This document shows positions 9,251-57,818 of a DNA stretch of 64,000 nucleotides, piece by piece. The notes beneath the pieces are model-generated. The model did not search any database. It was not told the origin of the DNA and saw only the letters and a list, made by a program, of their open reading frames with translations. A program made the position numbers and the translations under genes. This stretch comes from Trypanosoma brucei (Eukaryota): the NCBI GenBank assembly GCA_000002445.1, contig CP000067.1:576001-640000 (forward strand), given 5' to 3'. Position 1 is the stretch's first letter, and every line of letters starts with the position of its first letter.

Positions 9251-9799
9251 ATGTCCTCATCTCGTCCTGCCACTGGGAACCGCTTAGCCGTTCCTATCCG
9301 GACAAATCTTCCCGTTCCCGCACCCCGTAAGCGCCGATTTGAATTAACGGATGAGCAACGACAGGAGATTCGCGAAGCATTCGAGCTGTTCGACTCCGAC
9401 AAGAACGGTCTTATCGATGCGCATGAAATGAAGGTTAGCATGCGGGCACTTGGATTTGATGCAAAGAAAGAGGAGGTCTTGCGCATGATGCAAGACTGCG
9501 CGGCGCGGGATCAGCATAATAACCCACTTATGGACTTAGCGGGATTCACTGATTTGATGACCGAACGCTTTGCTCAACGGGACCCACGGCAGGAGATGAT
9601 CAAAGCGTTTCAACTGTTCGATGAGAACAATACGGGGAAAATATCTCTGCGTTCCCTCCGTAGGGTTGCAAGAGAATTGGGCGAGAACATGACGGATGAA
9701 GAATTGCAAGCCATGATTGACGAGTTCGACACAGATCAAGATGGCGAGATTAATCTTGACGAATTCCTTGCCATCATGCTGGAAGATGATGACTACTGA
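9251..9799 (+). CDS. Centrin (caltractin), an EF-hand calcium-binding protein
   Basis: EF-hand loops [12 protein letters not shown] and [13 protein letters not shown] are present. A basic N-terminal extension is typical of centrins. The protein is 182 aa and starts at an ATG. Confidence 0.85.
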
Positions 9800-11498: not shown

Positions 11499-12062
11499 AT
11501 GACGCAAAACAAGGTGAGGAAGTCCAGTTCCATCATTTCTACCATACGTGGAGCTCTCTCCTTTACACGGAAGGATGAAGGGAGTCCTGCGGGTTCGCTC
11601 GGCACCCCGCTGATACGCAGCGACCCGGTTCCCATGTGTTTCCGTCGACCCCAATCATCACATGGCTGCCCGGCTGCCAGCAATCCAACTTCTTTTACTC
11701 TTCGCTCTCATGCGATGGATGACAGGAGGGATTTACTGGAAGAGGAGGAGGCGATGTTTGGTGGATTCCGACCAAAGGAGGAGGCCCTTCGAGGGAGTTC
11801 TGGTTTTTGTATTTCATCACTTTCCTTTTCACCACAACTCGTCGCAATGAATGGGGACCTTTCACCCAGTGAGCGATGGGATGATTATGATGGTTATGAT
11901 CAATATAATAATAATAATATTAATGGTGATGATGATGATGATGATGATGATTCGAACTGTAAGTTTCATGTACACAGTGAGGAGCCGCCTGCTGGCACCC
12001 GCAAGCGAGTGGAGGAATGGATAAAGACTCAAATGCCTACCGTCAAACCAGCCGCTTCATGA
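11499..12062 (+). CDS. Hypothetical acidic low-complexity protein (187 aa) with an Asn-rich and poly-Asp tract
   Basis: The ORF starts at an ATG and is co-oriented. A (GAT)8 run encodes DDDDDDDD. There is no recognisable domain, so it could be non-coding. Confidence 0.3.
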   Translation: MTQNKVRKSSSIISTIRGALSFTRKDEGSPAGSLGTPLIRSDPVPMCFRRPQSSHGCPAASNPTSFTLRSHAMDDRRDLLEEEEAMFGGFRPKEEALRGSSGFCISSLSFSPQLVAMNGDLSPSERWDDYDGYDQYNNNNINGDDDDDDDDSNCKFHVHSEEPPAGTRKRVEEWIKTQMPTVKPAAS

Positions 12063-13994: not shown

Positions 13995-14029
<35 letters not shown>

Positions 14030-15890: not shown

Positions 15891-15903
15891 AAAAGTGTGC
15901 GAC

Positions 15904-43196: not shown

Positions 43197-46100
43197 ATGG
43201 AGGGAGAGCGTGGCCGCAATAGCCAAAACCAAAAGTTGGGGCTGGAACTGGTTCATGATGACGGGCGACCCATCGCCTCATGTCCGATTGACATGAATGA
43301 ACTGCTGAAGAAGATGGGGAAAACAGTAGAGGTGAAGGAGGGCGTTCGCGTCCGTTTGGAGGAATATAACGAAGATGAGGGTCTTTACTACTCTGAAGAC
43401 AGCTGGTCCGAGGAAAGTGAGGAAGAATCTCAAAGCGAGGAAAATGATAGTGCGGAGGACATTGCGGAAACACCTCCTCCAGGGTGTCGCAGAGTGGAAG
43501 ATTGGAACAGTGCTGTTAGGGCAACACAGCGAGGAGAAAAGCCACCGATGGTGCAAGCATCCGGAATTCTTTCACGGTCCCCCAAACACGTCAAAGAGAA
43601 GGGTACAGCAGATATCAAAGCAGGACAGATTCCACGTCGGGAGTTATGGGTTTCACGAGCGCCACCCGCAGATACCGAAAGAACGTACAAGCGGCTCCAG
43701 ACAGTACGACTCATGCCCTGTCCAACATCGCGTCGCTTTTGCCTTCCACCACTGACGTTTCACGCCGCAGCATCTTATACAGGGAACGCCGCCCGTGGCC
43801 CACGAATGCTTGTGTACGGCGGCACAACAAACCTCGGCAAAACTACCGAGAACGAGCTGTACGAGTTCTCGCTATTGTCTGGTGATTGGCGTCGGGTGGA
43901 GGGAAAGCAGTCCCACTCTCCTGGCGTGTACGGGCATACCGCTGTTGTGTTGAAGAAGCATCGGCGTGTCGTCTTGACGGGAGGCGTAGGCTATGGTGGC
44001 GTCCCTCCCGAGCCTTTGGAGTCCCTTACGGACGACTACCGCAGAGCGCGCTTTCATCTCCTTTTCCCCCATAAAGAACCTATTCAATCCAACGCGCAAG
44101 CAATACCGGAAACCGTGGCCAATACGGAGTTGCCAACGTTGTGGACTCTAGCCCACGCAGCGGAGTCGGTACCAACCTTTGGTTTTCTACCGGTGATATT
44201 TGACGTGGACCTGAGAACCCGCAGGTGGCGCACTATCGAGACAAGCCCTAAACTTCCTGTCGTCTTCCATAGTGCCGTTGCTATCGGGACCAGGCTATAC
44301 ATCTTTGGGGGTATGAATACCCATCTTCAGGTTTCTTCACAGTTGATCCTTGTTGATGGTGAGACCTATAAGATTTCTCTTATTCCCCCATCCACCGACC
44401 CACCCAAAGCTCGCTTCCTACACTCCGCTGTCGTTTACGCTCATTGGATGATTATTTATGGTGGGTTCGATGCCCACAACCAACCGTTAGACGATGCGTG
44501 GGCCTTTGATACGGTAAATGAGCGTTGGGAACAGCTTCATTGCCACGGGTCGCATGCCCGTGGTGCTCACGCTGCGTGTGTTGTGGGTTCGCGGCTAATT
44601 GTAGTGGGAGGCTTCGACAGCAGTTTTGATGGTGATGAGGCTCCCGCCAGCACTTGCCTTGAGCTCAACCTTATTCCAAATCATGAGGATAAACATTTAT
44701 GGAGACCTCTCCCTTTGCATCCGACGGTTCCACCCGTGGCGTTTGCAGCGGTGTGCCCGTGTGGAGACGACGCATCTTTCCTTCTTTATGGCGGCTGCAT
44801 AGCTGCCAAAAAAGGAGATGACTCCAAAAAGGCACAAGGAGGCGGAGGAAAGTCACCAGGGCGTGGAAGGCATACGAATAGCGGGCATACTGGCTATAGC
44901 GACTGCATAGGTGACGACGGCGACAATTTAACTATCTGGAAGCGGCTCGTCCCATCGAATGAAGGTTTCCTCCTCACGTTTCCTGTGAAGCGCCCAGAAA
45001 AGAACAATGAAGGAGACGCTGAGCCCCGTTACAACGCGCTGGGGGTGGAAATTGATCCTGATGAGGTACCGGCGGAGTTTCTGGCGTTTGTGAAGCGGCA
45101 ACATGATTTCCTCCTGAAGAAAACCGGGAACGTTGAACAGACAATGAAGAAGATATTCCTTGAAGAGCGCGAAAGCATGGAGCCACATCTTTACCTCACC
45201 CCTGATGAGGTAGAAAGGCTGATAGAAGAGAGTGAGGAGTTATGCACGCGGTTTAGTGAGTATAAGATGGAGGAACTTCCACCTCACGTGCCCGAAAGGC
45301 AGCTTCGGTTGCACCTCAATGAAGAATGTGTTTCACTCAGCCGGCAAGTGAGAGACGTAATAAAGTCCATGAAGGGGAACCCCGCTGCCGCCGCTGCTGT
45401 GAAGTCAAAGACTCATCGGTTTAAAGTAGGACAGAAGTTCGAGAGTCACTCAGCGCCGAAACCATTCCGTCGTGTTGTTATCATGTCACTCATGAAAGAA
45501 ATAAAAAGAAATATCAAGCGGGTGCTCTTATCCAACAAGGCTCTGAAGACAGTAGAGTGGCCAAACAAGGCAGAGTACCTTGAAGCTATTCGAAGAATGC
45601 AGGAGACAGCGGATACTTTTCTTCTTTCCGTGAAGGAGATTCTCGACGTTTACATTGAGAAACGTGTGGATTCGCTAGTCAGCGCGATTGACACTCGTAA
45701 GAACAAGTTGAAGCGGTTGACAGAAGCCGTGGAGCGAAGCCGGCAAAGTTTTCCCGTTCACCCTCTGGATATTGTGGCAAGGGTGGGAGGGAGAGGGGGT
45801 CGGTCCTCTCCATCTCCGCAATCCATTAGCAGCCGTGCAAGGTCTCGCTCTCCGAGCGCAAGACACTTTAAAGGTGGCGAAGAAGCAACGCATACACTAA
45901 ATAAAGGAGAAGTTGGTGTTCTACTTAACAAGGCTTCTGCTGTGAGGACGAATGCTTCCCTATTCGGTGAGAGCTGTCAGTCAATGATACCACCGGCACC
46001 CAAGCAGGTGGCTACTGCGCTTCTAGTGCCCGGTATGACTCCTCCACCGGAAGGGGAAGATGCAGCAGCTTCCAGAGAAACTGTGTGGCATACAGCCTGC

Positions 46101-47600
46101 GGTCAGGTTCAACAAATTGTGAAGTGCGTCGATAGGTTCATTGAAGGTATTCGAGCCTCGCAATTAGAGCAGAAACCACTGAACGAGGCAGGAGATGGCA
46201 CAGAGGAGGGTTCATATAGAGTGAACCTGGCCCTTGCAACAGTTTGGCCGTTGGAAACATGCAAGGACAAACTTGATGAATTAAAAAAGGGCATGCCCGA
46301 GGTCCGCAATCCCTCACCTGCAGCTGGGGGTGATGAGGCTGCAAAGCTAAAGAAAACGCAACAACATTATACTCGGCTTTCAAAGAGCCTTACTGCTCTC
46401 GTGCAGAGTGTCAAAATGAGTATTCTCAGTAGAGCCGGGGCGAAACCACCGCCAGCAGTTCACATCACCTCGCGGGATGTTGTGGCAGCCAGTCCTTCAT
46501 CAAAGGGAAGGGCATGGAGACCCCCACAATCCAGACGGCAAAGGTCCACTATAGAGGTGCTGGACTTACATGCTGATGACGCCACAGAGCCTGAAGGATA
46601 TTCGCCCACTGCTGAGGAAGAGCAGCGTCATTGTCACGCTGTACTTTCACCACTTAGCCCCAAGCTCGTTCCGATCGAAGATTTATTTGCCTCACCGAGG
46701 ACCGCACCTGCCGTGGAGGCCCCTAATCGGATACCGATAACTTCCAGGGAGGCTGCCGCGCTCGTGTCAGCACCCCAAGCGGCGGTTGCTGCAACGGGTG
46801 AATGTGTTATTGTACCTTCCAAGAAGGATGTTAGGGTGGTGAAAAACTCATCGTCGGCATCACTGCTTTTTCATGAAGGTGATGACACCAGCGCTGCGAT
46901 GCACTCCCGCCTCTTTCCCCCTCAGGCATACCACGACTATTATGCGGCGGCGGCGACGCCACAACAACCGACGTGCATTGCTGTTTCCAACGGGCCGAAG
47001 ATGGTAGCAGCTGGAGAAAATCGCAGCTCCGATGCGGTGATATCACTTATAGACGTTTTCGACGGTGTACATCCGGTGACAGTGACTGACGAAGGGAAAC
47101 AAGACTTAAAGGCGATGGTGAGTGTTACCCCAGGGTTCTTCCACGCGCACCCTTCTGCGGTTGACACGGGTACATCCGAGACATCCGATCATGTCAAATA
47201 CTGTGACTCTCCGATGCTTGAGGATGATTACTTTTTCTTTGGTCGCCGTCTTGAGTCCAGTTGTTTGCCTACGGGCCCCGTCCAACCCCTTTCTACACCC
47301 AGTGCTAAGGGCACTACGAGGAAAAAGACTCAGAAGAGAGAACCATCAGTTAAACTGGCAGCCAAAAGCAGGACACGTGACACTAAATCATCCCCTCACT
47401 GCCTGTCGTTTTCAGCAACCCCTCTTCGTGACAGCAAGCGCCGCTCAGTTTCACGAGGAGAGCGCGCAGTCCGTCAGTTGATGGAGCCCGACTCTTTTGC
47501 TCGAGGCGGCGGTGGCGGTCCCTTACGCGGGAAGTTAACACCTGGAGAAGCACGAATCGCGGAGGCGAGGAAACGTGGCAGCCTCATGTCTGGTAGTTAG
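43197..47600 (+). CDS. Kelch-repeat beta-propeller protein with a long (~1000 aa) low-complexity Ser/Ala/Pro/Arg-rich C-terminal region
   Basis: Kelch blades are recognisable: RMLVYGGTT...NELYEF, HTAVVLKKHRRVVLTGG, TRLYIFGG, HSAVVYAHWMIIYGGFD...DDAWAFDTVNERWEQL and HAACVVGSRLIVVGGFD. Confidence 0.6.
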   Translation: MEGERGRNSQNQKLGLELVHDDGRPIASCPIDMNELLKKMGKTVEVKEGVRVRLEEYNEDEGLYYSEDSWSEESEEESQSEENDSAEDIAETPPPGCRRVEDWNSAVRATQRGEKPPMVQASGILSRSPKHVKEKGTADIKAGQIPRRELWVSRAPPADTERTYKRLQTVRLMPCPTSRRFCLPPLTFHAAASYTGNAARGPRMLVYGGTTNLGKTTENELYEFSLLSGDWRRVEGKQSHSPGVYGHTAVVLKKHRRVVLTGGVGYGGVPPEPLESLTDDYRRARFHLLFPHKEPIQSNAQAIPETVANTELPTLWTLAHAAESVPTFGFLPVIFDVDLRTRRWRTIETSPKLPVVFHSAVAIGTRLYIFGGMNTHLQVSSQLILVDGETYKISLIPPSTDPPKARFLHSAVVYAHWMIIYGGFDAHNQPLDDAWAFDTVNERWEQLHCHGSHARGAHAACVVGSRLIVVGGFDSSFDGDEAPASTCLELNLIPNHEDKHLWRPLPLHPTVPPVAFAAVCPCGDDASFLLYGGCIAAKKGDDSKKAQGGGGKSPGRGRHTNSGHTGYSDCIGDDGDNLTIWKRLVPSNEGFLLTFPVKRPEKNNEGDAEPRYNALGVEIDPDEVPAEFLAFVKRQHDFLLKKTGNVEQTMKKIFLEERESMEPHLYLTPDEVERLIEESEELCTRFSEYKMEELPPHVPERQLRLHLNEECVSLSRQVRDVIKSMKGNPAAAAAVKSKTHRFKVGQKFESHSAPKPFRRVVIMSLMKEIKRNIKRVLLSNKALKTVEWPNKAEYLEAIRRMQETADTFLLSVKEILDVYIEKRVDSLVSAIDTRKNKLKRLTEAVERSRQSFPVHPLDIVARVGGRGGRSSPSPQSISSRARSRSPSARHFKGGEEATHTLNKGEVGVLLNKASAVRTNASLFGESCQSMIPPAPKQVATALLVPGMTPPPEGEDAAASRETVWHTACGQVQQIVKCVDRFIEGIRASQLEQKPLNEAGDGTEEGSYRVNLALATVWPLETCKDKLDELKKGMPEVRNPSPAAGGDEAAKLKKTQQHYTRLSKSLTALVQSVKMSILSRAGAKPPPAVHITSRDVVAASPSSKGRAWRPPQSRRQRSTIEVLDLHADDATEPEGYSPTAEEEQRHCHAVLSPLSPKLVPIEDLFASPRTAPAVEAPNRIPITSREAAALVSAPQAAVAATGECVIVPSKKDVRVVKNSSSASLLFHEGDDTSAAMHSRLFPPQAYHDYYAAAATPQQPTCIAVSNGPKMVAAGENRSSDAVISLIDVFDGVHPVTVTDEGKQDLKAMVSVTPGFFHAHPSAVDTGTSETSDHVKYCDSPMLEDDYFFFGRRLESSCLPTGPVQPLSTPSAKGTTRKKTQKREPSVKLAAKSRTRDTKSSPHCLSFSATPLRDSKRRSVSRGERAVRQLMEPDSFARGGGGGPLRGKLTPGEARIAEARKRGSLMSGS

Positions 47601-48604: not shown

Positions 48605-51600
48605 ATGGGGTTTTGGCCGCGTTCCTTACTTGCCAGAGACTATGAGGTACCGAAGCGTCCCATTTTCCACCTCGAAGGATGGGATGTGGTTCAGGGAACA
48701 GACGCAGCCACTTACGTTTCGGGTGTTGTGCCCGACGGCGTTATGTACGGTACCAACGGGTGTTTAGGCGTACGGCATCATTGTGAGTCGGAAACGGTAG
48801 GGTACCGAACAAGTCTTTACATGAACGGCGTCTACCACAGTGCTCCCCTTAACGCGTACGTTGACAGTGAAGCGCTGCCAGAAGAGATTCAAGTTGGTGC
48901 CACCGTATGTGAAGTGACTCTCGACTGCTTCATTGATGGAGAGTCTGGGACCCTTGGCGAGGCACCATCGCAGAGGTTGAACTTGCGAGACGCCACGTAT
49001 TCTAGCACCAGCGTGGATGTTGTCAGCGGTGACGGTGGGCTTACTTTTGACTCCACATATCGCCAGGTTGTATCTTTGAACGAGTTGGACCTCTGGTGCG
49101 CTGAGACTGTATGCACCAACTTTTCCATCGACGCCTTGTCGAGTGGAACAGATTTTGCTTCACAAAACAATTCCGAGTCCTCAGCAAAACACATCGAAGA
49201 GGACATGTACAGCACTGAGTCCTCTACTTATTCTGTTGTTTTTATCGTTTCTGTTACTGTATCGCTGGATGACTGGTATCTTGTGGGTGGTGACTCCACG
49301 GAAAAACTGCTCATCGAATCCACCACGTCCGGCATATTGGTAGGCACTGAAACGGAAGCCTCATGCACAGTAGAATGCGGCGACCGAACATACAAGATAG
49401 TCCCGGAGCAACAAGTGAGAAATGTTCCGGAGGACTTTTATACGCCCCACCGTGATTGCGGCTTCTCCCATGCAGCGTACGTAAGCGAAAGCGAGAGTGA
49501 GCACCCACACTCTTCCCGTGCCGCTTGGAGAGGCACCTCCGGCTCGCGGGGTCGTGTATGCTTCCAAAAACAGTTCCCCTATACAATTACCCCCGACAAC
49601 GTGCCTCAAAAGGTAACGTTGAGCTTTCATGCACGACATCACAATGGGGGGCTTCCACTTTCGCGGCCGTTTCCGTCTTTTGCGGATGTCGTGGCCGAGC
49701 AACGTCTCGTGTTGGACAATTTCTGGAGTACCTTTTGGATTGATATCCAGCGACAGGACGAACTGCCGCCTAATCGCATGAAACTTGGCCTAATATTTAA
49801 TTCGTTTCGGTTGTTCTGTGTTTCTCGCAACCTGCAAAACGGCCTGCCACAGGCTGGCTGCTCAACAACTAAGAGTAATTTGCTGTATGACCTCCAACAG
49901 TACGTTTACCATGGCATCTACTATATTCTCACGTCGCCATCAAGTGCGCTTGCGCTCCTTCGCAGCCTCTATTGTATGCTTTCTCAGGCTCGAATGAACG
50001 CCCTTCGTCTATCGCTTGAACACGGCGCCGTATACCCACGCAGAACGATCACAGGGACGGAGTGTTGGCATTGTAGTACCCTCAACAACGCCCGGTTTCA
50101 CGTCAATGCTGAGGTGGGCTATATAATAAATATGTATTTTTCTGCCGTGGAAAGCATTGCCACGAGCGATCGCTTGTGGCTGTTGGAGCTCATGTTAGAG
50201 ACAGCACGTGTTTGGTCGCAAGTTGGGGAGTGGGTGGAAAATGAAGGTGTGTTTCGTTTGGACAATATTGCCGGCCCGGATGAGTACAACGGTAACGCGG
50301 CAGGGAACTTTTACGTTCACCTCTCGGCAAAGCTACATTTGAGAAATGCTTACAATCTTTACGAGGAACAACAAAAAATCGTTGGTGATGAAGCTATATT
50401 TTGTCTGCTGCAGGGAATTAACATGGACATATCGGAACTTGAAAACTTCAGGACCATCTCCAACGAGATTGTTGTGCGACGTGACAACCACCTTGATGTT
50501 TTTTTGGTGCATGATCACTTTGACACACTGAAAGAATGGAAGGGGGAGCGTCCAAAGCACCCCTTGTCCATGAACTACCACCCTCTTGCAATATACCGTC
50601 ATAAAGTTGTGAATATTCCCGAAGTCCTTCTCGGCATGTTGTTGTACCCAGCCGAGTTTGAGCGAAAGGATTTGCTGCAGAACTTGTCCTACTACGCCCC
50701 GCTCTGCACGCATGACTCGGCGGAGTCATTGGCTATTGTTGCGTGTGTGGAGTTCCGAGCGAACGGTCGCTTCACTCACGGCATGCCGCTACTATGTTCA
50801 TTGGCTAGCTTGGATTTAGATAACATCATTTACGCTGCCGACGAAGGACTTGATTTTGGTGCCATGTCCGCAACGTGGATTGCCGTTGTCATGGGTATTG
50901 GTGGTGTTAAGATCACGTCTCGTAGTCTGCATTTAGACCCTTCCTTTCCCGCTGGGTTGAGTGTACTTAGTTTCACTCTGCACTGGCGTGGGGCGACCCT
51001 GCGGACGCGTGTAGAGAAGGACTGCATAACGTATGACCTGATGGCAGGGGATAGCATACGATTTATTCATGCCAGCAGACATCGCATCCATTTGCATTCC
51101 GGATGCAGGCAGAGCGTCGCCCGCAAGCAAGTCGCTATACCGCAGCCCATGAGCAGCATGCATGGGGAATTTGCCGGTGCCATTTTTTTGTGCGAGACGC
51201 TTTTTGACAGCGTCATGGAGATGAACTTCATTGCGTGGGGCAAGACGCTGGAGTCACTCTATGAGAACTATCGGGCGCTGCACCTCCGCCACATCCCACC
51301 GCTCACAGCGGAAGAGTTCGTCGATAAAGTTATTTATCAGGCAGAGCACCGTGAGATTGCCTTCAGTGGGATTCACAATGTGCTACTGGACCGTGGAATA
51401 GACCTCCCACTCGGTTCACCCGACGATGCCGAAATTGTAGAGACGCGTTATGGTTTAGCCAACGCCAAGGTGGCAGAGTTGGAGGAGATGTGGTCTCGCG
51501 AGGCACCGTGTGTGAATCCAGCGATGCGGGCATTGCTGCGCGATTTGGAGGATAATGGAATACCGCTTGCGCTTGTGTCGTACAGTCGAACCCTTAAGAC

Positions 51601-52051
51601 ACTGATGCAGTATCATCCAGAGGAGGCACTGCGTTTCCTCACGGCTATTGATGGCGATGAGGCGCATGAGCGGCACATCAAGAGCCGACCGCATCTCGAC
51701 ATTTTCGTTCGTGCAGCCGAAAAGATCCACGTGGAGCCGAGTCGTTGTCTGATCTTCTCTTCTCACATCGACAGTAACTTCAAAGTGTCGGAGCTCTCTT
51801 ACTTCCGCATGGTGTTTGATGTGGAGGATCCCTTTGCGGCGCGGGTGCGGGGATCCAAAACCTGCGAGTATCCCTCCATGCTGAGGCCCGCAGCGGCTGA
51901 TGGGGATGTGCGGCCACTTGTGATTAACTTGAAGCGGGATAAGTTTCCCACAACTGTAGACGGGTTGGAAAGCATTTTATGCGGCCCAGTGGCGTCGGGT
52001 TCTGATCTCGCCGCTGCGGGCGATGCTCCGCCAAGTGATCCCTGCAGTTAA
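48605..52051 (+). CDS. Glycoside hydrolase family 65-like disaccharide phosphorylase/hydrolase with a fused C-terminal HAD (beta-phosphoglucomutase)-like domain
   Basis: The N-terminus IFHLEGWDVVQGTDAA...VMYGTNGCLGVRHHCES...GYRTSLYMNGVY parallels the GH65 N-terminal domain of maltose phosphorylase (WNVITHTF...SLGNGYMGMRG...GIYLGGVW). The C-terminus carries HAD motif II (IPLALVSYSRT), motif III (KSRPHLDIFVRAAEKIHVEPSRCLIF) and a motif IV region. The ORF-track start is GTG, so I moved it to the ATG at 48605. Confidence 0.65.
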   Translation: MGFWPRSLLARDYEVPKRPIFHLEGWDVVQGTDAATYVSGVVPDGVMYGTNGCLGVRHHCESETVGYRTSLYMNGVYHSAPLNAYVDSEALPEEIQVGATVCEVTLDCFIDGESGTLGEAPSQRLNLRDATYSSTSVDVVSGDGGLTFDSTYRQVVSLNELDLWCAETVCTNFSIDALSSGTDFASQNNSESSAKHIEEDMYSTESSTYSVVFIVSVTVSLDDWYLVGGDSTEKLLIESTTSGILVGTETEASCTVECGDRTYKIVPEQQVRNVPEDFYTPHRDCGFSHAAYVSESESEHPHSSRAAWRGTSGSRGRVCFQKQFPYTITPDNVPQKVTLSFHARHHNGGLPLSRPFPSFADVVAEQRLVLDNFWSTFWIDIQRQDELPPNRMKLGLIFNSFRLFCVSRNLQNGLPQAGCSTTKSNLLYDLQQYVYHGIYYILTSPSSALALLRSLYCMLSQARMNALRLSLEHGAVYPRRTITGTECWHCSTLNNARFHVNAEVGYIINMYFSAVESIATSDRLWLLELMLETARVWSQVGEWVENEGVFRLDNIAGPDEYNGNAAGNFYVHLSAKLHLRNAYNLYEEQQKIVGDEAIFCLLQGINMDISELENFRTISNEIVVRRDNHLDVFLVHDHFDTLKEWKGERPKHPLSMNYHPLAIYRHKVVNIPEVLLGMLLYPAEFERKDLLQNLSYYAPLCTHDSAESLAIVACVEFRANGRFTHGMPLLCSLASLDLDNIIYAADEGLDFGAMSATWIAVVMGIGGVKITSRSLHLDPSFPAGLSVLSFTLHWRGATLRTRVEKDCITYDLMAGDSIRFIHASRHRIHLHSGCRQSVARKQVAIPQPMSSMHGEFAGAIFLCETLFDSVMEMNFIAWGKTLESLYENYRALHLRHIPPLTAEEFVDKVIYQAEHREIAFSGIHNVLLDRGIDLPLGSPDDAEIVETRYGLANAKVAELEEMWSREAPCVNPAMRALLRDLEDNGIPLALVSYSRTLKTLMQYHPEEALRFLTAIDGDEAHERHIKSRPHLDIFVRAAEKIHVEPSRCLIFSSHIDSNFKVSELSYFRMVFDVEDPFAARVRGSKTCEYPSMLRPAAADGDVRPLVINLKRDKFPTTVDGLESILCGPVASGSDLAAAGDAPPSDPCS

Positions 52052-54694
52052 GGAAAGAAAGAAAAAGAAGGAGGAGGGGAAAAAAACGCAAGGATGGAAG
52101 GGGCTTTGCTTTCCTTTTTGCCTTCCGACTAAACCCTCTATCCTTGCGTTTTTTCTCCCCTTCCTTCTTTTTCTTTCTTCTCTCTGTATACTCGCTTTTC
52201 CCTCGTCACACACGCCTTACACATGCAGGATACGTCAGTCGCAGACGGTCAAACAGCACCGGCAAGATTAGAGAGTGTCTTCGGTGATTGACCGAAAGGA
52301 CGAAAGAAAAAAACGCAAAAAAAATCCACATTAAAGAGACGGAAGAATGGAGAGAGAGAGAGAGAAAAGGGGCGAGTGAATATATCAATAAATGAAGTAG
52401 AGTGGGATTGAGAAATAATATTGCCTCGGCTGGTCAATGTGCATAATAAGGAGCGTAAATGAATGAAGAAAGGAATGGGAAACGGGATGTGTTAACTCCT
52501 AAAGGTGTAGATAAGAAAGGTGTGAAGTGTGTCTGTGTGTGTTTGTGTACGTGGGAAGGATGCACGAGAAAATATATGTGAATTGATTCTCCCCTCCTTT
52601 TCTCCCATTTGGCCGTAACGAAAGGAAACGCAAGACGAAACAAATAAAGGGTGGAGAACAAAAAAAACCGAAAGCAACATTAAAGACAACAATAACGATG
52701 GCGAAGTGTATCCTTCACAACTGTCTTCCATTTTAAATTCACCTATTTTTGTTTTATGTCAAGGTAAATTATAAACATGAGAGGGGAAAAAACAATGAGA
52801 ACGTGCGTATTTTTATTGGTTTCTTTTACCGTTTCAAGTGTCAGCAAGCGGATGACACGACTCCCAAGTTGCAAAGTAGAGGGGAATGGTAATAAGCGCA
52901 TTACACTTTACAGCGCGTGTAAGAAACGGGAAAGCAGAAGAGGAAGTCTTTTTTTTTTTTAAAGAAAAAACAAAACAGAAAACAACGGGAAGCAAAACCA
53001 AAAGTTATTGCGTCCGAATATGTGTTAATTAGTTGAATGGGAAACCCCGCTTTTGTGTTTGGCCGTATTTCAAAATGAAGAACGGCGTACCTCACACCAT
53101 GAGGGTTTTTTTCTTCTTTTTTTGTTTAAATTTTTTAAAAAAAGGTTCCGCAAAACGAAGTTATTTACGTATTATTCAACGGGTAAAACGGTGAAGGGGA
53201 AATTAATTTTAAACAATAAAAAGATTTCATGAAGAAGTGAAAGGAAAGAGGGAAAAGTAGAAGAGGCGGTAAGATAAAGTCATTAGTTTGTGTGTGCGTG
53301 TTTTTTTTTTCCAATTTTTCGCTCTTGATTCATTTGACTTTTTCGCGCTTCACCGTGGCTTTTATCATTATTAATTGATTAACCTTCCTTTCGGAAAATA
53401 ACATGTGCCCCCCCCCCCCTACGGGTCTTAACGGGACGGTCACCGAAAAAAAAAAAGAAGGGAGGAATGATGCCGAAAACGAAGGGGTATGGCGCGATTC
53501 CATAGACCCCAGTTTGCCGAGAGAAGTTTCACTTCGCATCATATTTCAGGTTGTGTGTTTTTTTTTTAATTTTCGCTTCGGATCGTCTTTTTTTTTTCCC
53601 CCTCCCCTTCCACAACTCTTTTTCACCTTCACACCTTTCATTCTCCCTTAAAGCTCTTGTCCTTATCAACATCTAGTGCTACACATTTGATGGTGTGCTC
53701 TAACCATACTCCATTTATTTATTTTTGATTTACTTCTTCATTTTCGTTTACGTGCTTAATTTCACTTTTTTTTCCTCATTCCATTCCATTCCATTTTTTG
53801 TTTTGTTTTTGATTGTTTGATACGTGATTTTGAGTTGTTGAGAAGAAGAAGTGATGGTGAGTTGAAGCGACGCCAGTGTGGTGGCATCCGCTTTTTTTCT
53901 ACACGTTTGTGCCTTCGTCTAAAAAAAGAAAAATGTGTTTGATTATCGGTTCACTTATTCCAGCATTTGACATCTTATGTATGCCTTATTTGTTGTTGTT
54001 TTTTCTTTTATTATTTTCCTTTCGATTTGAAAACTGCTATTTTATTTTTCTATTTTATTTTTTTTATTTTGCATTTTCACTTGTACTGCTATTTCCCCTT
54101 CCCTTCCTCTAACTTGAGTGCTGGCCTTTCAGCTACCCCTGGGGGAAAAAAAAAGAAATAAACGGTGAAGTTTGGGAAGGGGGTGATGAGAACCAACCTT
54201 CAGTATATATATATATATATATCTTTTTTTCTATGTTAGTGTTTACTTTTTTATTTCTAGTTGATGTGCATGTCCTCTCTTTTATCTGTTTTTTTTTTAT
54301 TTACCATAAAATCTCCAAAGTCAGCTGCTACCGTCAATCTTCCCTTATCTCGAGTAGTTTGAGGAAGAATAGAAATGCCCTTCTTAAAGCAATTGAGTGG
54401 GATTTCTGAAAAGTGAAATTAGCGTGAGACAGCTCCAGTAATTATTATTATTATTTTCTTCTTCAATCCAAGTGTCGTTTCACGTCATGGAGTGGGGCGA
54501 TATCAGCCGCGGTTGTTGCGCTCCACTTCTTCCCTCCATCTTCCTGCTTTCGCTTGAATTATATCTCTCTTAACTCATCCTACTTCCTTCTTTTTTCCTT
54601 TCCTTCTTTTTTCCTTTCCTTTTCTTCTTGACGTAAGTTTTCCCAATATTCGCATCAAGTAGGTAGTAAGTTCTACCTATAGTATTAAGAGATT

Positions 54695-55117
54695 ATGACT
54701 CTTGCGGATACGCTACACCCCGTCTTCGTATTTATTCTCATCGTTAATGCCGTTTCCTGTGCATTTCCATTACTTTCACACCGTCTTGTGTTTTACCCCA
54801 TCGTGTTTGTGGCTCTCGGCCTGCTCTACGTGACTCTGCTGGTCTTACTAATGGGTGCAACAGTTATGATGCGAAATCAATCCTTTAGTGACCATCGTGT
54901 GAAGGAAAATACTCTCATAATAATTAAGCGAGATGTGAACATGACAACATGGATGGTGATATCAACTGTAGTTATGGTTGCTTGGATGTACTGCTGGGCC
55001 CGTCGCGTGTGGTTAGTGTATATTCTTCCCATGGTGGAGGAGTACAATGCGTTCAAAAGTCGACGTTGGGCCGATGCATTAGACTTACGGGGTCGTATGA
55101 AGCCGACTGTTTCATGA
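54695..55117 (+). CDS. Small hypothetical multi-pass membrane protein (140 aa, ~4 predicted TM segments)
   Basis: The ORF starts at an ATG and has 4 hydrophobic stretches. There is no homology I recognise, so it may be non-coding. Confidence 0.3.
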   Translation: MTLADTLHPVFVFILIVNAVSCAFPLLSHRLVFYPIVFVALGLLYVTLLVLLMGATVMMRNQSFSDHRVKENTLIIIKRDVNMTTWMVISTVVMVAWMYCWARRVWLVYILPMVEEYNAFKSRRWADALDLRGRMKPTVS

Positions 55118-55853
55118 TTGCAACTACATTTCTCCATTTGTGGTGGCACGTTGGTTTGAAATTGCCGCGGCTTTTGTGCATGTGTGCATGTGTATGTGTT
55201 GTTTGCATCCATCGCGTCATTGTGACCGAATATACGAAAAGGGCACTGTAAATGAAGAGTGGGGAGTGGCATTAGTGGCGGGTGTCCACAGAAATTTGTT
55301 GTGCACCGCGCTTCTCTGGTTGAGCACTTCTCCGTGAAGTTTTGGAACTAATTTGCTTTCCTCATTTTCTTCCTCGTTGGTGTTTCGTTGTCAAATGTTT
55401 CTTTTATTTCATATACCATTTCTGCTTATTGATTTCGTTAAGTTCAACATTTCGCCGCAAAGACGACGTTAGGTTTTTTGGGGCGGCGAAACTCAGGGTG
55501 ATCATTGGAGGTGTGACGGTGCCAAAAAGTAACCTTATTTTTTTGTCAAGCGGAGACCCTCTAACTCAGGCGTACTGGACACGACATTCAGGTGTGGAAG
55601 TGCACTTAATAGAGTACGCGTTCACACACACACACACACACGCATATATATATATATAATATACGTATTCAGTAAGTGATCAACAGCAACGCTGTGGTAC
55701 GCCACCCGCCGCTTCGGGTTCTCCGTGAGAGCACTGATACCCACAAGTAATAAAAGGGTTGACATATCAAACATCGTCGTCTCTTACGCTTTTGCCTCCA
55801 CTTCTTCGTTACCTTCCGCTTCTGGAAGCAGCAGATCGGTGAGCGTGGCGCGA

Positions 55854-57818
55854 ATGGCACGGCACCCCAACACGGCGATTGTGCTGCAACCCACCAATAG
55901 TGCCATTATCACTTTGGACTTATGTCTGCAACTCGGCGGCCCATCAGCACCGTTATGGCGGAAGAGCGTAGCAAGAGACGAGAATGAGGCAGCTGACAGA
56001 GCAATTGAGCGACTTAGGATTCTCATCGCGCAGTCCGCGGGGGACAAAAAGAGCAAAAAGACGTCACGCGAGGAGATTTTGAAGAATTGTCAGCCAATTG
56101 AAGTTCTTGGCGTGTCAAGCGAGGGGGAGCAGATCTTAAATGAAGAAAATGGCCTAACCAAGCTTGACACTTCTGTTTCCAATAAGGAATTCTGGAGGAA
56201 CGTCAGACAAATGTTGATTGGGTCAACTGTTGTGCCGGTTAAATACAACGTTCCCACCATTACTGCGGTAGTGCCACCCTCAGCGCTGTACGTGGGAGCC
56301 CCAGCAGTTTGCGCGGGCATCACAGCCCTCTTTACCACAGAGGTAGATGTTCAGTATGAATGGTGCGCACGCGCCGCTCCCAAGAGTCCTGCGGGCACGG
56401 GCGCTTCTTCTGATGCCACTGTGCGCGTAATCAGTACTAAACCCGTTTTTACTCCTACAACACGGGAGTTGGGTGAGTCGCTGTTTCTTCGCGTCCTACC
56501 GGAGCCGGGTTCAGATTTGTGCACACAAGTGGAGCTCCCTCAGGTTCGTGCCGAAGTGCCTCCAATGGATCGCTGGACTCAAACAAAGCAATCTGTGGAA
56601 GCACCGAGCTTTAGGATGGTTACGTACAACGTCTTGCACGAGGAGTTCTGTAGCACGAGTTCGGCAAAGAAAACCATTTATCCCTTCGCAACAGATGACA
56701 TTCTGTCGCTAGAGTACCGACAGAGCCGTATCGTGCAGGAACTTCTTGCATACAATGGTGATATTATCTGTTTGCAGGAATGCGGGAAAAAAGTGTACCA
56801 GCAATTTTTTTCCCGTGTTATGACTCAGTACGGCTATGAGGGATGCTATACAAACAAGAATGGTGGTGTAAGGGAGGGATGTGCATGTTTTTGGAGGCGC
56901 AGTAGATTCTTCCTGCAGGAAAAGGATGAATTTCCGCTCAACTGGTCAACGATGGAGAAGGAACATCCAGCTCTGGCAGCTGAGGTGACCCGTCATCCCG
57001 AGTTGAAGGAGGCGTTGGAGAATGTTACTTCGATTGGCGCCTTGGTATTACTGAAAGATAACGCGACAAACGAAGAGTTGGTGGTTGGGAACACGCATTT
57101 GTTCTATCATGCAAACGCCTGCCATATTCGGCTTCTACAGGTATACATGCTTCTTCACAAACTGAAGAGCCGCAGTGATTCGCGCAGGGGTGTTGTCTTA
57201 TGTGGGGACTTCAACTTTACCCACACAACGGGTGGCTACAAATTAGTGACTACGGGACGTACGGAGGCGTCACATCACTCGTGGGCGAAAGGGGAAGTGT
57301 TCCACTGGGGTTGTGACCGCATGTTAGGCATCAACGCCGCTGAGGGAGCGGGGGGGTCTGCGGAAGTTGAAACGGGTTTGGACGTGAGAAGGGGAAAGGG
57401 AGAATCTGCCACATGTGCTTCGAAAAACAATAAGAATGACACAAATAACAATAATGAGAGTAATGGCAATAGTGTAGATGCGAGCACATCATGTGCCGCA
57501 ACATCAGCTGATACTGGCGTTGCGTCAAGCGTAAAGGCTGATTACCGACCTCCATTTGATGTTTTCCGTGCGGACATGGAGGCACCAATGCAGTTCACAG
57601 ATGCGTATGGTGTAACGGATCCGGAAATGCCATGGACTAATTATACAATGACATTCCGTGAGGTTATTGACTACGTTTTCTTCAACCCAGACCGCCTGCT
57701 TGTCGTTCAGACAATTCCCATTCCACCAGAGAGTGAGCTGTCAGAAAATGTGGCTCTCCCGAACCGGAAGTACCCATCAGACCACGTTGCATTGATTGCC
57801 GATTTGTCGTACAAATAG
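55854..57818 (+). CDS. Endonuclease/exonuclease/phosphatase (EEP) family protein, CCR4/nocturnin/PDE12-like
   Basis: The EEP catalytic core is present: VTYNVLHEEF, IICLQECG, CACFWRR, VVGNTHLFYH, VLCGDFNFT and YPSDHVALIADL. The ORF-track start is GTG, so I moved it to the ATG at 55854. An Asn/Ser-rich low-complexity insertion (NNKNDTNNNNESNGNS) lies inside the domain. Confidence 0.7.
   Translation: MARHPNTAIVLQPTNSAIITLDLCLQLGGPSAPLWRKSVARDENEAADRAIERLRILIAQSAGDKKSKKTSREEILKNCQPIEVLGVSSEGEQILNEENGLTKLDTSVSNKEFWRNVRQMLIGSTVVPVKYNVPTITAVVPPSALYVGAPAVCAGITALFTTEVDVQYEWCARAAPKSPAGTGASSDATVRVISTKPVFTPTTRELGESLFLRVLPEPGSDLCTQVELPQVRAEVPPMDRWTQTKQSVEAPSFRMVTYNVLHEEFCSTSSAKKTIYPFATDDILSLEYRQSRIVQELLAYNGDIICLQECGKKVYQQFFSRVMTQYGYEGCYTNKNGGVREGCACFWRRSRFFLQEKDEFPLNWSTMEKEHPALAAEVTRHPELKEALENVTSIGALVLLKDNATNEELVVGNTHLFYHANACHIRLLQVYMLLHKLKSRSDSRRGVVLCGDFNFTHTTGGYKLVTTGRTEASHHSWAKGEVFHWGCDRMLGINAAEGAGGSAEVETGLDVRRGKGESATCASKNNKNDTNNNNESNGNSVDASTSCAATSADTGVASSVKADYRPPFDVFRADMEAPMQFTDAYGVTDPEMPWTNYTMTFREVIDYVFFNPDRLLVVQTIPIPPESELSENVALPNRKYPSDHVALIADLSYK

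What the first reader, a model, noticed from the sequence alone, without database searches (positions are those of the whole stretch)
48605..52051. GH65 phosphorylase-like enzyme fused to a HAD (beta-PGM-like) domain whose nucleophile motif appears degenerate
GH65 disaccharide phosphorylases (maltose, trehalose, kojibiose) produce beta-glucose-1-phosphate, and beta-phosphoglucomutase (HAD) is their usual partner, often an operon neighbour in bacteria. Here the two are fused in one 1148 aa polypeptide. HAD motifs II (LALVSYS), III (K...CLIF) and IV are visible. Where motif I (hhhDxDG[TV]) should sit, I can only find GAIFLCETLFDS, with no DxD nucleophile. Either the HAD domain is a non-catalytic sugar-phosphate-binding module, or motif I is elsewhere and I missed it. 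A phosphorylase-type carbohydrate enzyme is itself notable for trypanosomatids, which are not known to store maltose or trehalose.
Basis: partly seen in the sequence, partly recalled or inferred. Interest (0 to 1): 0.55.

Follow-up and report, generated by a model that had tools for sequence, protein, structure and literature searches.

The report
Doubly dead GH65–β-phosphoglucomutase fusion protein
This Trypanosoma brucei gene encodes a sugar phosphorylase fused to a β-phosphoglucomutase-like domain; both folds are kept, but nearly all catalytic and substrate-binding residues of both are replaced, and the gene is still under strong selection, so it most likely has a non-enzymatic job.

Summary
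Window 48605-52051 (+) encodes a 1148-aa protein identical to T. b. brucei TREU927 XP_844391.1 (UniProt Q584E6; by product name Tb927.4.2410). It has a GH65 region followed by a β-phosphoglucomutase-type HAD domain.

- **HAD motif I is degenerate.** Profile-profile alignment and a confident model put invariant Leu862 at the Asp nucleophile position. There is no alternative DxD.
The motif III Lys is Arg, the motif IV acids are gone, and the cap Arg for the distal phosphate is gone.
- **The GH65 domain has also lost its active site.** It lacks the Phe/Trp/Asp and Lys/Gln of subsite -1, which the literature calls fully conserved. It also lacks the phosphate-site Lys and the second Ser. These are 0 of 31 in the query clade against 98-100% of 105 canonical relatives. 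Five clade members have lost the general-acid Glu.
- **The gene is strongly constrained.** dN/dS is 0.059, and it is conserved across trypanosomatids and kinetoplastid-type metagenome contigs.
- **A second paralogue exists.** It is partly degenerate.

Best reading: an ancient double pseudoenzyme with a non-catalytic role. No functional study was found.

The parts
48605..52051 (+). Complete CDS (1148 aa plus TAA stop). It is T. b. brucei TREU927 XP_844391.1 / UniProt Q584E6, and probably Tb927.4.2410.
48662..49645 (+). N-terminal β-sandwich-like region (aa 20-347). It resembles the GH65 N domain and carries two low-complexity insertions.
   Evidence: Pfam Glyco_hydro_65N scores 3.9e-4, below the gathering score. 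The model shows β-strands. This is the least conserved folded part, with 14% invariant columns.
49670..50899 (+). Helical linker plus (α/α)6 GH65 catalytic-domain homologue (aa 356-765).
   Evidence: Pfam Glyco_hydro_65m 2.5e-42. 1h54 maltose phosphorylase 6.6e-25. hhalign against canonical GH65 gives probability 100%, E 8e-98. Foldseek top hit is 1h54 at 2.5e-18.
49853..49903 (+). Remodelled loop AGCSTTKSNLLYDLQQY (aa 417-433). It replaces the canonical 'KGLTGEGYxGHYFWDxE', which carries the phosphate Lys K330 and the subsite -1 residues F342/W343/D344.
   Evidence: K, F, W and D are 98-100% conserved in 105 canonical sequences and present in 0 of 31 clade members.
50273..50287 (+). GPDEY, the general-acid motif. 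E560 is retained in T. brucei.
   Evidence: Glu is kept in 26 of 31 clade members. It is lost in Phytomonas (T), Leptomonas pyrrhocoris (Q), P0025 (R), P0029 (A) and P0032 (A).
50612..50617 (+). N670-I671, at the position of the subsite -1 Lys-Gln (CsKP K596/Q597).
   Evidence: Lys is 105/105 in canonical sequences and 0/31 in the clade.
50711..50728 (+). HDSAES, at the position of the phosphorylase 'HDSSLS' phosphate loop. The first Ser (S705) is kept. The second Ser is Ala here and Pro in most orthologues.
50852..50854 (+). D750, at the position of the phosphate-site His.
   Evidence: The clade shows H19, D5, N4, R3.
50918..51076 (+). GH65 C-terminal β-sheet domain (aa 772-824).
   Evidence: Pfam Glyco_hydro_65C 6.1e-10, above the gathering score.
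51161..51844 (+). β-phosphoglucomutase-type HAD-fold domain (aa 853-1080): Rossmann-like core plus a helical cap.
   Evidence: PDB 8h5s (Rv3400) 2.8e-12. hhalign 99.8%. AlphaFold model pLDDT 89.8, pTM 0.86. Foldseek to 8h5s gives E 7.8e-15, TM 0.75.
51176..51211 (+). Degenerate motif I, GAIFLCETLFDS. L862 (nt 51188-51190) replaces the Asp nucleophile. E864 replaces the acid/base Asp. T865 replaces the Gly.
51392..51481 (+). HAD cap loop RGIDLPLGSPDDAEIVETRYGLANAKVAEL (aa 930-959). This is the most conserved 30-residue window of the whole protein and the candidate functional surface.
   Evidence: mean top-residue frequency is 0.92, and aa 918-958 are 61% invariant across 19 trypanosomatids. It is shared with Rv3400 as 'GSPDD..ETvYGLgNrK'.
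51566..51592 (+). Motif II region LALVSYSRT. S992 (the motif II Ser/Thr), S994 and R995 are retained.
51680..51700 (+). Motif III region KSRPHLD. R1028 replaces the catalytic Lys.
   Evidence: Lys is 30/30 in canonical sequences. The clade shows R20, Q7, P2.
51746..51772 (+). Motif IV region CLIFSSHID. S1052/S1053 replace the Glu-Asp Mg2+ ligands. D1056 is invariant in trypanosomatids.

Best explanation
The gene encodes a catalytically dead descendant of an α-glucoside (probably trehalose-type) phosphorylase fused to a β-phosphoglucomutase.

**Shown**
- Both folds are intact.
- The HAD domain lacks the Asp nucleophile, the motif III Lys, the motif IV Mg2+ ligands and the cap Arg.
- The GH65 domain lacks all universally conserved subsite -1 residues and most of the phosphate site.
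- These losses are shared by the whole kinetoplastid clade.
- The gene is under strong purifying selection.

**Inferred**
- The protein no longer performs phosphorolysis, hydrolysis or phosphoryl transfer.
- It is kept for a non-catalytic role, as a ligand-binding, regulatory or scaffolding protein.
- The likeliest functional surface is the hyper-conserved HAD cap loop (aa 930-959), together with a residual polar and basic pocket (E864, S992, S994, R995, K955, R1028). That pocket could still hold an anionic ligand or a partner without turning it over.
- Because solved GH65 phosphorylases are dimers (own knowledge), it may act as a homo-oligomer or together with the second, partly degenerate paralogue.
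For: **Fold and homology:**

**HAD residues** (30 canonical β-PGM domains against 29 clade members)
- D8: D30 canonical; L23/T2/Q/S/M/V in the clade.
- G11: G30 canonical; 0 in the clade.
- R49: R30 canonical; 0 in the clade.
- N77: 29 canonical; 0 in the clade.
- N118: 30 canonical; 1 in the clade.
- K145: K30 canonical; R20/Q7/P2 in the clade.
- E169: 29 canonical; 0 in the clade.
- Retained: an acidic residue at D10 (29/29), W24, K76, S114, S116, K117 as Arg, and P146.

**GH65 residues** (105 canonical sequences against 31 clade members)
- K330, F342, W343, D344 and K596 are each 98-100% conserved in canonical sequences and 0 in the clade.
- Q597 is replaced throughout the clade (I671 in the query).
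- The second Ser is Pro in 27 of 31.
- The acid Glu is lost in 5 of 31.

**Literature.** W, D, K and Q of subsite -1 and the catalytic acid are conserved in all characterised GH65 hydrolases, phosphorylases and transferases. Mutating the acid abolishes activity (PMC11442529; PMC8626586).

**Constraint**
- dN/dS is 0.059 against T. b. gambiense.
- Against T. vivax, pN is 0.18-0.19 in both domains while synonymous sites are saturated.
- Full-length orthologues occur in more than 20 trypanosomatids.
- Orthologues also occur in kinetoplastid-type metagenome contigs, one with the same Kelch-GH65-Exo_endo_phos synteny.

**Context.** A 2026 survey finds no trehalose breakdown pathway in Trypanosoma or Leishmania (PMC13237430).
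Against: - No experiment was done or found, so inactivity is inferred from sequence alone.
- The general acid E560 and the first phosphate Ser are retained in T. brucei and most orthologues. The phosphate His is retained in 19 of 31.
- The catalytic domain is well conserved (27% invariant columns). This would also fit an enzyme with a rebuilt substrate pocket.
- The position of the hydrolase-type general base could not be tested.
- The full-length model is poor (pLDDT 57.6), and I had no coordinates to inspect the pockets.
- No partner, ligand or localisation is known, so the positive part of the explanation (what it binds) is speculative.
Confidence: 0.65

Rival explanations
1. Neofunctionalised enzyme. 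The GH65 domain is still a glycoside phosphorylase, hydrolase or transferase, but with a rebuilt -1 subsite for a different, non-glucosyl substrate. Only the HAD domain is dead.
For: - E560 is kept in 26 of 31 members, S705 in 22 of 31 and the His in 19 of 31.
- Clade-specific invariant residues replace the lost ones, for example Y433, P672-E673 and D704.
- The catalytic domain is strongly constrained.
- GH65 is known to have evolved hydrolase, phosphorylase and transferase chemistries (PMC11442529).
Against: - The general acid is replaced by T, Q, R, A and A in five lineages. These include full-length, otherwise well-conserved Phytomonas and Leptomonas orthologues.
- All six universal sugar-contacting residues, plus K330 and S632, are gone at once.
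- No characterised GH65 enzyme lacks them.
Confidence: 0.2
2. An active α-glucoside (maltose, trehalose or kojibiose) phosphorylase carries a non-catalytic HAD module that binds β-glucose-1-phosphate or another sugar phosphate.
For: - The domain order matches intact GH65-βPGM fusions found in the deep search: P0044, P0052, P0056 and others, and P0022.
- The motif II Ser, S116, K117 as Arg, and K76 equivalents are retained.
Against: - Subsite -1 (F/W/D and K/Q), the phosphate Lys and the second Ser are all absent.
- In the HAD cap, the Arg that binds the distal phosphate and the N77, N118 and H20 equivalents are lost.
- Trypanosomes are reported to lack trehalose catabolism.
Confidence: 0.07
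3. Dead-partner ('prozyme'-type) subunit. Paralogue A heterodimerises with paralogue B and regulates it, as in trypanosomatid AdoMetDC/prozyme and DHS.
For: - Two ancient paralogues co-exist in trypanosomatids. An A-like and a B-like copy also turn up in kinetoplastid-type contigs from one sampling project.
- Metagenomic B-like copies (P0036, P0039) keep most GH65 signatures, with Q597 and F342 altered, and both motif I Asp residues. B of T. cruzi, T. rangeli and T. conorhini keeps the acid Glu and both motif I Asp.
- Solved GH65 phosphorylases are dimers (own knowledge).
- Dead-paralogue activation is established in trypanosomatids (PMC3663545, PMC5201418).
Against: - In T. brucei itself, paralogue B is also degenerate: acid Glu to Asp, K596 to Arg, Q597 lost, nucleophile Asp to Asn. 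There is no obviously active partner to regulate.
- There is no interaction evidence of any kind.
Confidence: 0.06
4. A decaying gene or annotation artefact with no function.
For: Loss of catalytic residues is what decay would produce.
Against: - An intact ~1150-aa ORF is present in every species examined.
- dN/dS is 0.059.
- Constraint is very uneven: the cap loop is 61% invariant against 4% for the C-terminal tail.
- The transcript was detected and regulated in RNA-seq (PMC7952579).
Confidence: 0.02

Closest known systems
GH65 glycoside phosphorylases (L. brevis maltose phosphorylase 1H54; C. saccharolyticus kojibiose phosphorylase 3WIQ/3WIR; trehalose phosphorylases)
   Same: - Same multi-domain fold: N β-sandwich, linker, (α/α)6 barrel and C β-sheet.
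- Pfam GH65m and GH65C score above threshold.
- The GPDEY general-acid motif, the first phosphate Ser and many scaffold motifs are kept (HxNAE, ETARxW, NYHPLxIYR, LDLDN).
- The canonical relatives carry a 'FPWR' motif that fits the trehalose-phosphorylase 'WRA' signature described in PMC11442529. This is a lead only.
   Different: - F342, W343, D344, K596 and Q597 (subsite -1) are replaced.
- K330 and S632 (phosphate site) are replaced.
- The phosphate His is Asp in T. brucei.
- The general acid is not invariant within the clade.
β-Phosphoglucomutase (L. lactis PgmB 1LVH and related entries; M. tuberculosis Rv3400, 8H5S), HAD subfamily IA
   Same: - Same core-plus-cap fold: TM 0.75 to Rv3400 and about 0.6-0.7 to L. 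lactis β-PGM.
- Shares the long cap loop 'GSPDD..ET.YGL.N.K' with Rv3400.
- The motif II Ser/Thr, S116, K117 (as Arg), K76, W24 and P146 equivalents are kept.
   Different: - The nucleophile Asp is Leu and the motif I Gly is Thr.
- The T16, H20, R49, N77 and N118 equivalents are lost.
- The motif III Lys is Arg.
- The motif IV Glu/Asp are Ser/Ser.
- Scores fall far below the NCBIfam and Pfam cut-offs.
Intact GH65-βPGM fusion proteins (uncharacterised; P0044, P0052, P0056, P0079 and others of ~970-1030 aa; P0022)
   Same: Same domain order, with GH65 N-terminal and HAD C-terminal. They are homologous over both domains.
   Different: All GH65 and all four HAD motifs are intact in those proteins. 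The diplonemid Flectonema P0037 and P0035 keep an intact GH65 part, but their HAD domains have already lost the motif I Gly and the motif IV Glu. The query lies on a long branch that has lost the motifs of both domains.
Trypanosomatid GH65-HAD paralogue B (T. brucei P0216, T. vivax P0065, T. cruzi P0220, Strigomonas P0078)
   Same: - Same architecture and size (~1150-1270 aa).
- Sister group in the NJ tree (64% bootstrap support).
- Shares the derived HAD changes: G11 to Ser, K145 to Arg, E169 lost.
   Different: - B keeps W343/D344 and the His, and uses conservative K-to-R changes.
- Its general acid varies by species (E/D/G/N/M/T/I).
- Its nucleophile is D, N or E.
- Metagenomic B-like copies from kinetoplastid-type contigs (P0036, P0039) keep most GH65 signatures, though their Q597 and F342 equivalents are altered.
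Trypanosomatid dead-paralogue regulators (AdoMetDC prozyme, DHS dead paralogue)
   Same: A catalytically dead paralogue is kept under selection alongside a second paralogue in the same lineage (PMC3663545, PMC5201418).
   Different: There, an active partner and heteromer formation are demonstrated. Here both T. brucei paralogues look impaired and no interaction is known.
Glucoamylase-like (GH15, same clan GH-L as GH65) domains of phosphorylase kinase α/β regulatory subunits (own knowledge, not tested here)
   Same: An (α/α)6 glycosidase-type fold embedded in a large (~1100-1200 aa) non-catalytic regulatory protein of carbohydrate metabolism.
   Different: A different family (GH15, not GH65), with no HAD domain, and an analogy only.

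Membership tests
GH65 (CAZy family / Pfam Glyco_hydro_65) | Significant sequence match to the central catalytic and C-terminal domains | tested here: met
   PF03632 scores 145.6 bits (cut-off 27) and PF03633 scores 39.2 bits (cut-off 22). hhalign gives 100% probability, E 8e-98.
GH65 (CAZy family / Pfam Glyco_hydro_65) | N-terminal GH65 β-sandwich domain | tested here: inconclusive
   PF03636 scores 20.6 bits, below the cut-off of 26.6. The model shows a β-rich region at low confidence. The relative P0027 has a recorded PF03636 hit.
GH65 (CAZy family / Pfam Glyco_hydro_65) | Overall GH65 fold | tested here: met
   Foldseek top hits are 1h54, 6w0p, 4ktp and 3wiq, with E 1e-15 to 1e-18. TM scores are low because the model is poor.
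GH65 active enzymes (all reaction types) | Catalytic acid Glu (CsKP E483 / LbMP E487) | tested here: met
   E560 sits in GPDEY. It is not invariant in the clade, which shows E26/A2/Q1/T1/R1.
GH65 active enzymes (all reaction types) | Fully conserved subsite -1 residues Trp, Asp, Lys, Gln (CsKP W343, D344, K596, Q597) plus the Phe342 platform | tested here: not met
   In the query these positions are L430, Q431, N670, I671 and D429. The clade has 0 of 31 with W, D, K or F, against 105 of 105 canonical sequences. The definition comes from PMC11442529.
GH65 glycoside phosphorylases | Phosphate site: Lys (K330), two consecutive Ser (S631, S632) and His | tested here: not met
   The query has A417, S705 (kept), A706 and D750. 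The clade has K in 0/31, the second Ser in 2/31 and His in 19/31. The definition comes from PMC8626586.
GH65 glycoside hydrolases | General-base Glu (FjGH65A E616) with the supporting Tyr337 | tested here: inconclusive
   No hydrolase sequence could be aligned over this region. Counting nine residues upstream of the His-equivalent gives I741, but indels cannot be excluded.
HAD superfamily / β-phosphoglucomutase (PGMB-YQAB) | Rossmannoid core plus C1 helical cap fold | tested here: met
   The model has pLDDT 89.8. Foldseek to 8h5s gives TM 0.75, E 7.8e-15, and β-PGMs give TM about 0.6-0.7.
HAD superfamily / β-phosphoglucomutase (PGMB-YQAB) | Curated HMM thresholds | tested here: not met
   PF00702 scores 19.9 against 26.4, and PF13419 scores 12 against 23.8. 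TIGR02009 scores 40.2 against 153, and TIGR01990 scores 25.5 against 189.
HAD superfamily / β-phosphoglucomutase (PGMB-YQAB) | Motif I hhhhDxDG[TV]: Asp nucleophile and Asp+2 acid/base | tested here: not met
   L862 is at the nucleophile position (0 of 29 clade members have Asp). E864 is at Asp+2 and T865 at the Gly. There is no alternative DxD.
HAD superfamily / β-phosphoglucomutase (PGMB-YQAB) | Motif II Ser/Thr | tested here: met
   S992 is present. The clade shows S18/T11.
HAD superfamily / β-phosphoglucomutase (PGMB-YQAB) | Motif III Lys | tested here: not met
   R1028 is present. The clade shows R20/Q7/P2 against K30/30 in canonical sequences.
HAD superfamily / β-phosphoglucomutase (PGMB-YQAB) | Motif IV acidic Mg2+ ligands (E169, D170) | tested here: not met
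   S1052/S1053 are present. The E169 column shows S17/A8/G3/L1. The invariant D1056 lies three to four residues downstream, and its role is unknown.
HAD superfamily / β-phosphoglucomutase (PGMB-YQAB) | β-PGM substrate residues in the cap (R49, K76, N77) and core (S116, K117, N118) | tested here: not met
   R49 is Ala (0/29 Arg), N77 is Val (0/29) and N118 is Thr (1/29). K76, S116 and K117 (as Arg) are kept.

The most novel reading that the evidence does not exclude
Kinetoplastids have kept, since before the origin of parasitism, a pair of GH65-βPGM fusion paralogues. Copy A lost both active sites early. Copy B lost its active sites later, and only in some lineages. In this reading the two form a non-enzymatic or semi-enzymatic complex: either a prozyme-like regulator, or a sugar or sugar-phosphate sensor built from a retired trehalose-phosphorylase pathway. 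That complex would control some aspect of carbohydrate metabolism or differentiation.
Probability: 0.12. Interest if true: 0.7.

Novelty: new variant of a known kind. Interest (0 to 1): 0.45.

Why it matters
- **It corrects a tempting metabolic inference.** The database label 'GH65 / HAD hydrolase, putative' should not be read as evidence for disaccharide phosphorylase or β-phosphoglucomutase activity in trypanosomes.
- **It gives a clean, datable example of two fused enzymes dying together.** Both became pseudoenzymes yet stayed under strong selection across kinetoplastids, a lineage already known for functional dead paralogues.
- **It could point to new parasite biology.** If a ligand or partner is found, it could reveal a regulatory module specific to these parasites and absent from their hosts.

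The value is moderate, because no phenotype, localisation or partner is known yet.

Tried and rejected
1. **Motif I elsewhere.** Rejected. Only two DxD triplets exist in the HAD region, and both are misplaced and not fully conserved.
2. **phmmer pairwise register for subsite -1.** This put Y428/D429 on the Trp/Asp with a 2-residue gap. I replaced it with the gap-free MAFFT and hhalign register, L430/Q431. The conclusion holds in either register: no Trp and no conserved Asp.
3. **Enrichment test.** I compared loss of active-site columns with loss of other conserved columns in the query alone. The result is only suggestive: 2 of 9 kept against 32 of 56, Fisher p = 0.07. That call also mislabelled K596/Q597 by one column, which I corrected by hand to N670/I671.
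4. **Full-length AlphaFold model.** It was too poor (pLDDT 57.6) to judge the GH65 pocket or inter-domain contacts. No coordinates are available to inspect.
5. **Experimental data on the gene.** The ID appears in one paper only, as a transcript up-regulated after CSD1 knock-down. The held supplements of the TrypTag and Dejung 2016 papers do not contain it. The RIT-seq paper is not held.
6. **T. congolense DNA for dN/dS.** Not on record. T. vivax is saturated at synonymous sites.
7. **First phylogeny attempt.** It timed out. I redid it with a faster distance routine.
8. **Rfam scan of the window.** No hits.

Full report
**1. What is there**

Window 48605-52051 (+) holds an ATG-initiated ORF of 1148 codons ending in TAA.
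- The product is identical to T. brucei brucei TREU927 XP_844391.1 / AAZ10832.1 / UniProt Q584E6, on the 1,590,432-bp chromosome 4 record.
- It differs at four residues from the T. b. gambiense protein.
[quoted passage not shown] A T. brucei RNA-seq paper gives the same product name to Tb927.4.2410 (PMC7952579). That is the only paper in the library that holds this ID.
- So the two-domain composition is already in public annotation. I found no functional study.

**2. Domains**

- Pfam finds Glyco_hydro_65m (2.5e-42, aa 439-758) and Glyco_hydro_65C (6e-10) above threshold.
- Glyco_hydro_65N, Hydrolase and HAD_2 fall below threshold. The HAD matches cover only the motif II-IV half of the profiles.
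- NCBIfam β-PGM models hit weakly: TIGR02009 scores 40 bits against a cut-off of 153.
- Against PDB sequences the best matches are L. brevis maltose phosphorylase 1H54 (6.6e-25) for the GH65 part, and Rv3400 β-PGM of M. tuberculosis, 8H5S (2.8e-12), for the HAD part.
- The full-length AlphaFold model is poor (pLDDT 57.6). It still retrieves GH65 phosphorylases first (1h54, E 2.5e-18).
- A HAD-only model built from a 63-sequence alignment is confident (pLDDT 89.8, pTM 0.86). It matches Rv3400 with TM 0.75 and L. lactis β-PGM with TM about 0.6-0.7.

**3. The HAD motifs**

hhalign compared 29 members of the query clade with 32 β-PGM domains carrying a DxDG-type motif I, taken from GH65-HAD fusions. 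It gives probability 99.8% and E 7.7e-30 with an unambiguous register:

| Query residue | β-PGM position |
|---|---|
| L862 | nucleophile Asp |
| E864 | Asp+2 acid/base |
| T865 | motif I Gly |
| W878 | Trp24 |
| R1028 | motif III Lys |
| S1052 | motif IV Glu |

L862 is the last residue of strand β1 in both models.

Residue counts, after dropping the two non-canonical rows P0039 and P0078, so 30 canonical domains against 29 clade members:

| β-PGM position | Canonical (n=30) | Clade A (n=29) |
|---|---|---|
| D8 | D30 | L23, T2, Q, S, M, V |
| D10 | D30 | E15, D14 |
| G11 | G30 | 0 Gly |
| T16 | 29 | 1 |
| H20 | 30 | 4 |
| R49 | 30 | 0 |
| K76 | 30 | 28 |
| N77 | 29 | 0 |
| S114 | 29 (plus T1) | S18, T11 |
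| S116 | 30 | S18, T10 |
| K117 | R16, K11 | R28 |
| N118 | 30 | 1 |
| K145 | K30 | R20, Q7, P2 |
| E169 | 29 | 0 |

The only DxD triplets in the region are misplaced and not fully conserved. Motifs III and IV are also degenerate, and so is the cap site for the distal phosphate.

**4. The GH65 active site**

The literature defines the family's active site as follows (CsKP numbering).
- Phe342, Trp343, Asp344, Lys596 and Gln597 form subsite -1. The review calls these 'fully conserved'.
- Glu483 is the catalytic acid, 'conserved in all GH65 enzymes'.
- Phosphorylases and transferases add Lys330, Ser631 and Ser632 plus a His.
- Hydrolases instead have a general-base Glu.

These definitions come from PMC11442529 Table 2 and PMC8626586.

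A deep profile search returned 3292 relatives. I aligned the 164 listed sequences of at least 600 residues. I confirmed the register by hhalign against up to 60 canonical sequences (probability 100%, E 8e-98).

| Position | Canonical (n=105) | Query | Clade A (n=31) |
|---|---|---|---|
| K330 | 103 | A417 | 0 Lys |
| F342 | 105 | D429 | 0 Phe |
| W343 | 105 | L430 | 0 Trp (L24, F4, M2, V1) |
| D344 | 105 | Q431 | 0 Asp |
| E483 (acid) | 105 | E560 | E26, A2, Q1, T1, R1 |
| K596 | 105 | N670 | 0 Lys |
| Q597 | see note | I671 | replaced throughout |
| S631 | 105 | S705 | S22 |
| S632 | S79, T26 | A706 | P27 |
| His | 105 | D750 | H19, D5, N4, R3 |

Note on Q597: the canonical set was selected on the 'KQ[AP]D' motif, so Gln is present there by construction.

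One search mislabelled K596/Q597 by one column, which I corrected here.

The five members without the acid include Phytomonas (Thr) and Leptomonas pyrrhocoris (Gln). Overall the query keeps 52% of the 65 columns that are at least 95% conserved in canonical sequences, but only 2 of 9 literature-defined active-site columns. The GH65 half is therefore not a canonical phosphorylase or hydrolase. Its general acid is not under uniform constraint in the clade.

**5. Evolutionary setting**

Three tiers appear in the alignment.
- **(i) Intact fusions.** These are GH65-βPGM proteins of ~970-1030 aa, plus P0022, with all motifs of both domains.
  - The diplonemid Flectonema P0037 and P0035 also have an intact GH65 part.
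  - Their HAD domains keep both motif I Asp and the motif III Lys but lack the motif I Gly and the motif IV Glu.
- **(ii) The 'B/I' group.**
  - The GH65 motifs are mostly intact in metagenomic members (P0036, P0039).
  - The HAD domain is already altered: DxDS instead of DxDG, Lys145 to Arg, Glu169 lost.
  - This group contains a second trypanosomatid paralogue: T. brucei P0216, T. vivax P0065, T. cruzi P0220 and Strigomonas P0078.
  - In that paralogue the acid varies (E/D/G/N/M/T/I), K596 is Arg, and the nucleophile is D, N or E.
- **(iii) The query clade A.** Both sites are dismantled.

An NJ tree with 100 bootstraps gives A 100%, B+I 100%, and A sister to B+I at 64%. A lies on a long branch. 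NJ with long branches is a weak method, so I treat the sister relationship as provisional.

Clade A reaches beyond trypanosomatids.
- The metagenomic contig L001 carries P0031 with the same Kelch - GH65/HAD - Exo_endo_phos gene order as the window, on a single strand.
- L002 (A-like P0027) and L005 (B-like P0036) come from one sampling project and are also one-strand arrays of intronless eukaryotic genes.

I infer the following order of events, which is not proven.
- The fusion duplicated in an early kinetoplastid.
- A lost both sites before trypanosomatids arose.
- B degenerated later, lineage by lineage.

**6. Selection**

- Against T. b. gambiense there are 20 synonymous and 4 non-synonymous differences, giving dN/dS 0.059.
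- Against T. vivax, synonymous sites are saturated (pS 0.82). pN is 0.19 in the GH65 catalytic domain, 0.18 in HAD, 0.29 in the N domain and 0.41 in the C-terminal tail.
- Across 19 trypanosomatid orthologues, the most conserved 30-residue window of the protein is the HAD cap loop, aa 930-959 (RGIDLPLGSPDDAEIVETRYGLANAKVAEL). aa 918-958 are 61% invariant. This compares with 27% for the GH65 catalytic domain and 4% for the tail.

This is a functional gene, not a relic.

**7. Interpretation**

*Shown*
- The folds are retained and the catalytic and substrate residues of both domains are replaced.
- The gene is old and under strong constraint.

*Inferred*
- The protein is a double pseudoenzyme with a non-catalytic role.
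- The cap loop, plus the residual polar and basic pocket (E864, S992, S994, R995, K955, R1028), is the most probable functional surface.

*Rivals*
- The main rival (about 0.2) is a neofunctionalised GH65 enzyme with a rebuilt pocket. Sporadic loss of the general acid argues against it, but only experiments can exclude it.
- A prozyme-like partnership with paralogue B has precedent in trypanosomatids (PMC3663545, PMC5201418). It lacks an evidently active partner in T. brucei.
- A recent survey reports that Trypanosoma and Leishmania lack trehalose breakdown pathways (PMC13237430). This agrees with the loss of the ancestral chemistry.

**8. Verdict**

- The gene is known and domain-annotated. 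As far as the searchable literature shows, the finding that both halves are catalytically degenerate, ancient and paired with a second degenerate paralogue has not been described.
- It is a new variant of known kinds (GH65, β-PGM/HAD, pseudoenzymes) and is of moderate interest.

Noticed in passing
window 43197-47600 and 55725-57818; locus L001 5029-16516: The gene order is Kelch-repeat protein (1467 aa), then GH65/HAD, then an Exo_endo_phos/PDE12-like protein (697 aa). A metagenomic kinetoplastid-type contig shares this order, so the neighbourhood is ancient. In polycistronic genomes this need not imply a functional link.
   Followed up: partly
not in window: P0216 (T. brucei), P0065 (T. vivax), P0220 (T. 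cruzi), P0078 (Strigomonas): Trypanosomatids carry a second GH65-HAD paralogue of ~1150-1270 aa. Its general-acid position varies between species (E/D/G/N/M/T/I). Its HAD nucleophile is D, N or E. Metagenomic kinetoplastid-type relatives (P0036, P0039) keep most GH65 signatures.
   Followed up: partly
window 1-64000: All 20 ORFs of at least 250 aa lie on the + strand, which is consistent with one polycistronic transcription unit. No Rfam family reaches its gathering score anywhere in the window.
   Followed up: partly
window ~8450-15900: An ORF-poor, AT-rich stretch with GC 0.33-0.36 at 12-16 kb, against about 0.48 elsewhere. It contains a perfect (GTACT)x10 microsatellite at 13935-13984.
   Followed up: no
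window 52052-55724: About 3.7 kb without a long ORF, at GC 0.39-0.43, lies downstream of the gene. This is an unusually long intergenic or 3' UTR region.
   Followed up: no
P0022 (1767 aa), P0118 (1870 aa), P0127 (2856 aa): These are giant relatives from unnamed assemblies that embed the GH65-HAD unit in much longer proteins. P0022 has fully intact motifs plus a 640-aa N-terminal extension with no Pfam match listed.
   Followed up: no
window 51941-51976 (aa 1113-1124): A short conserved C-terminal motif, [FIV]P[TS][ST][IV]D.[LV]E, sits inside an otherwise poorly conserved tail. The HAD-only model predicts it as a strand-helix element packed on the domain.
   Followed up: no
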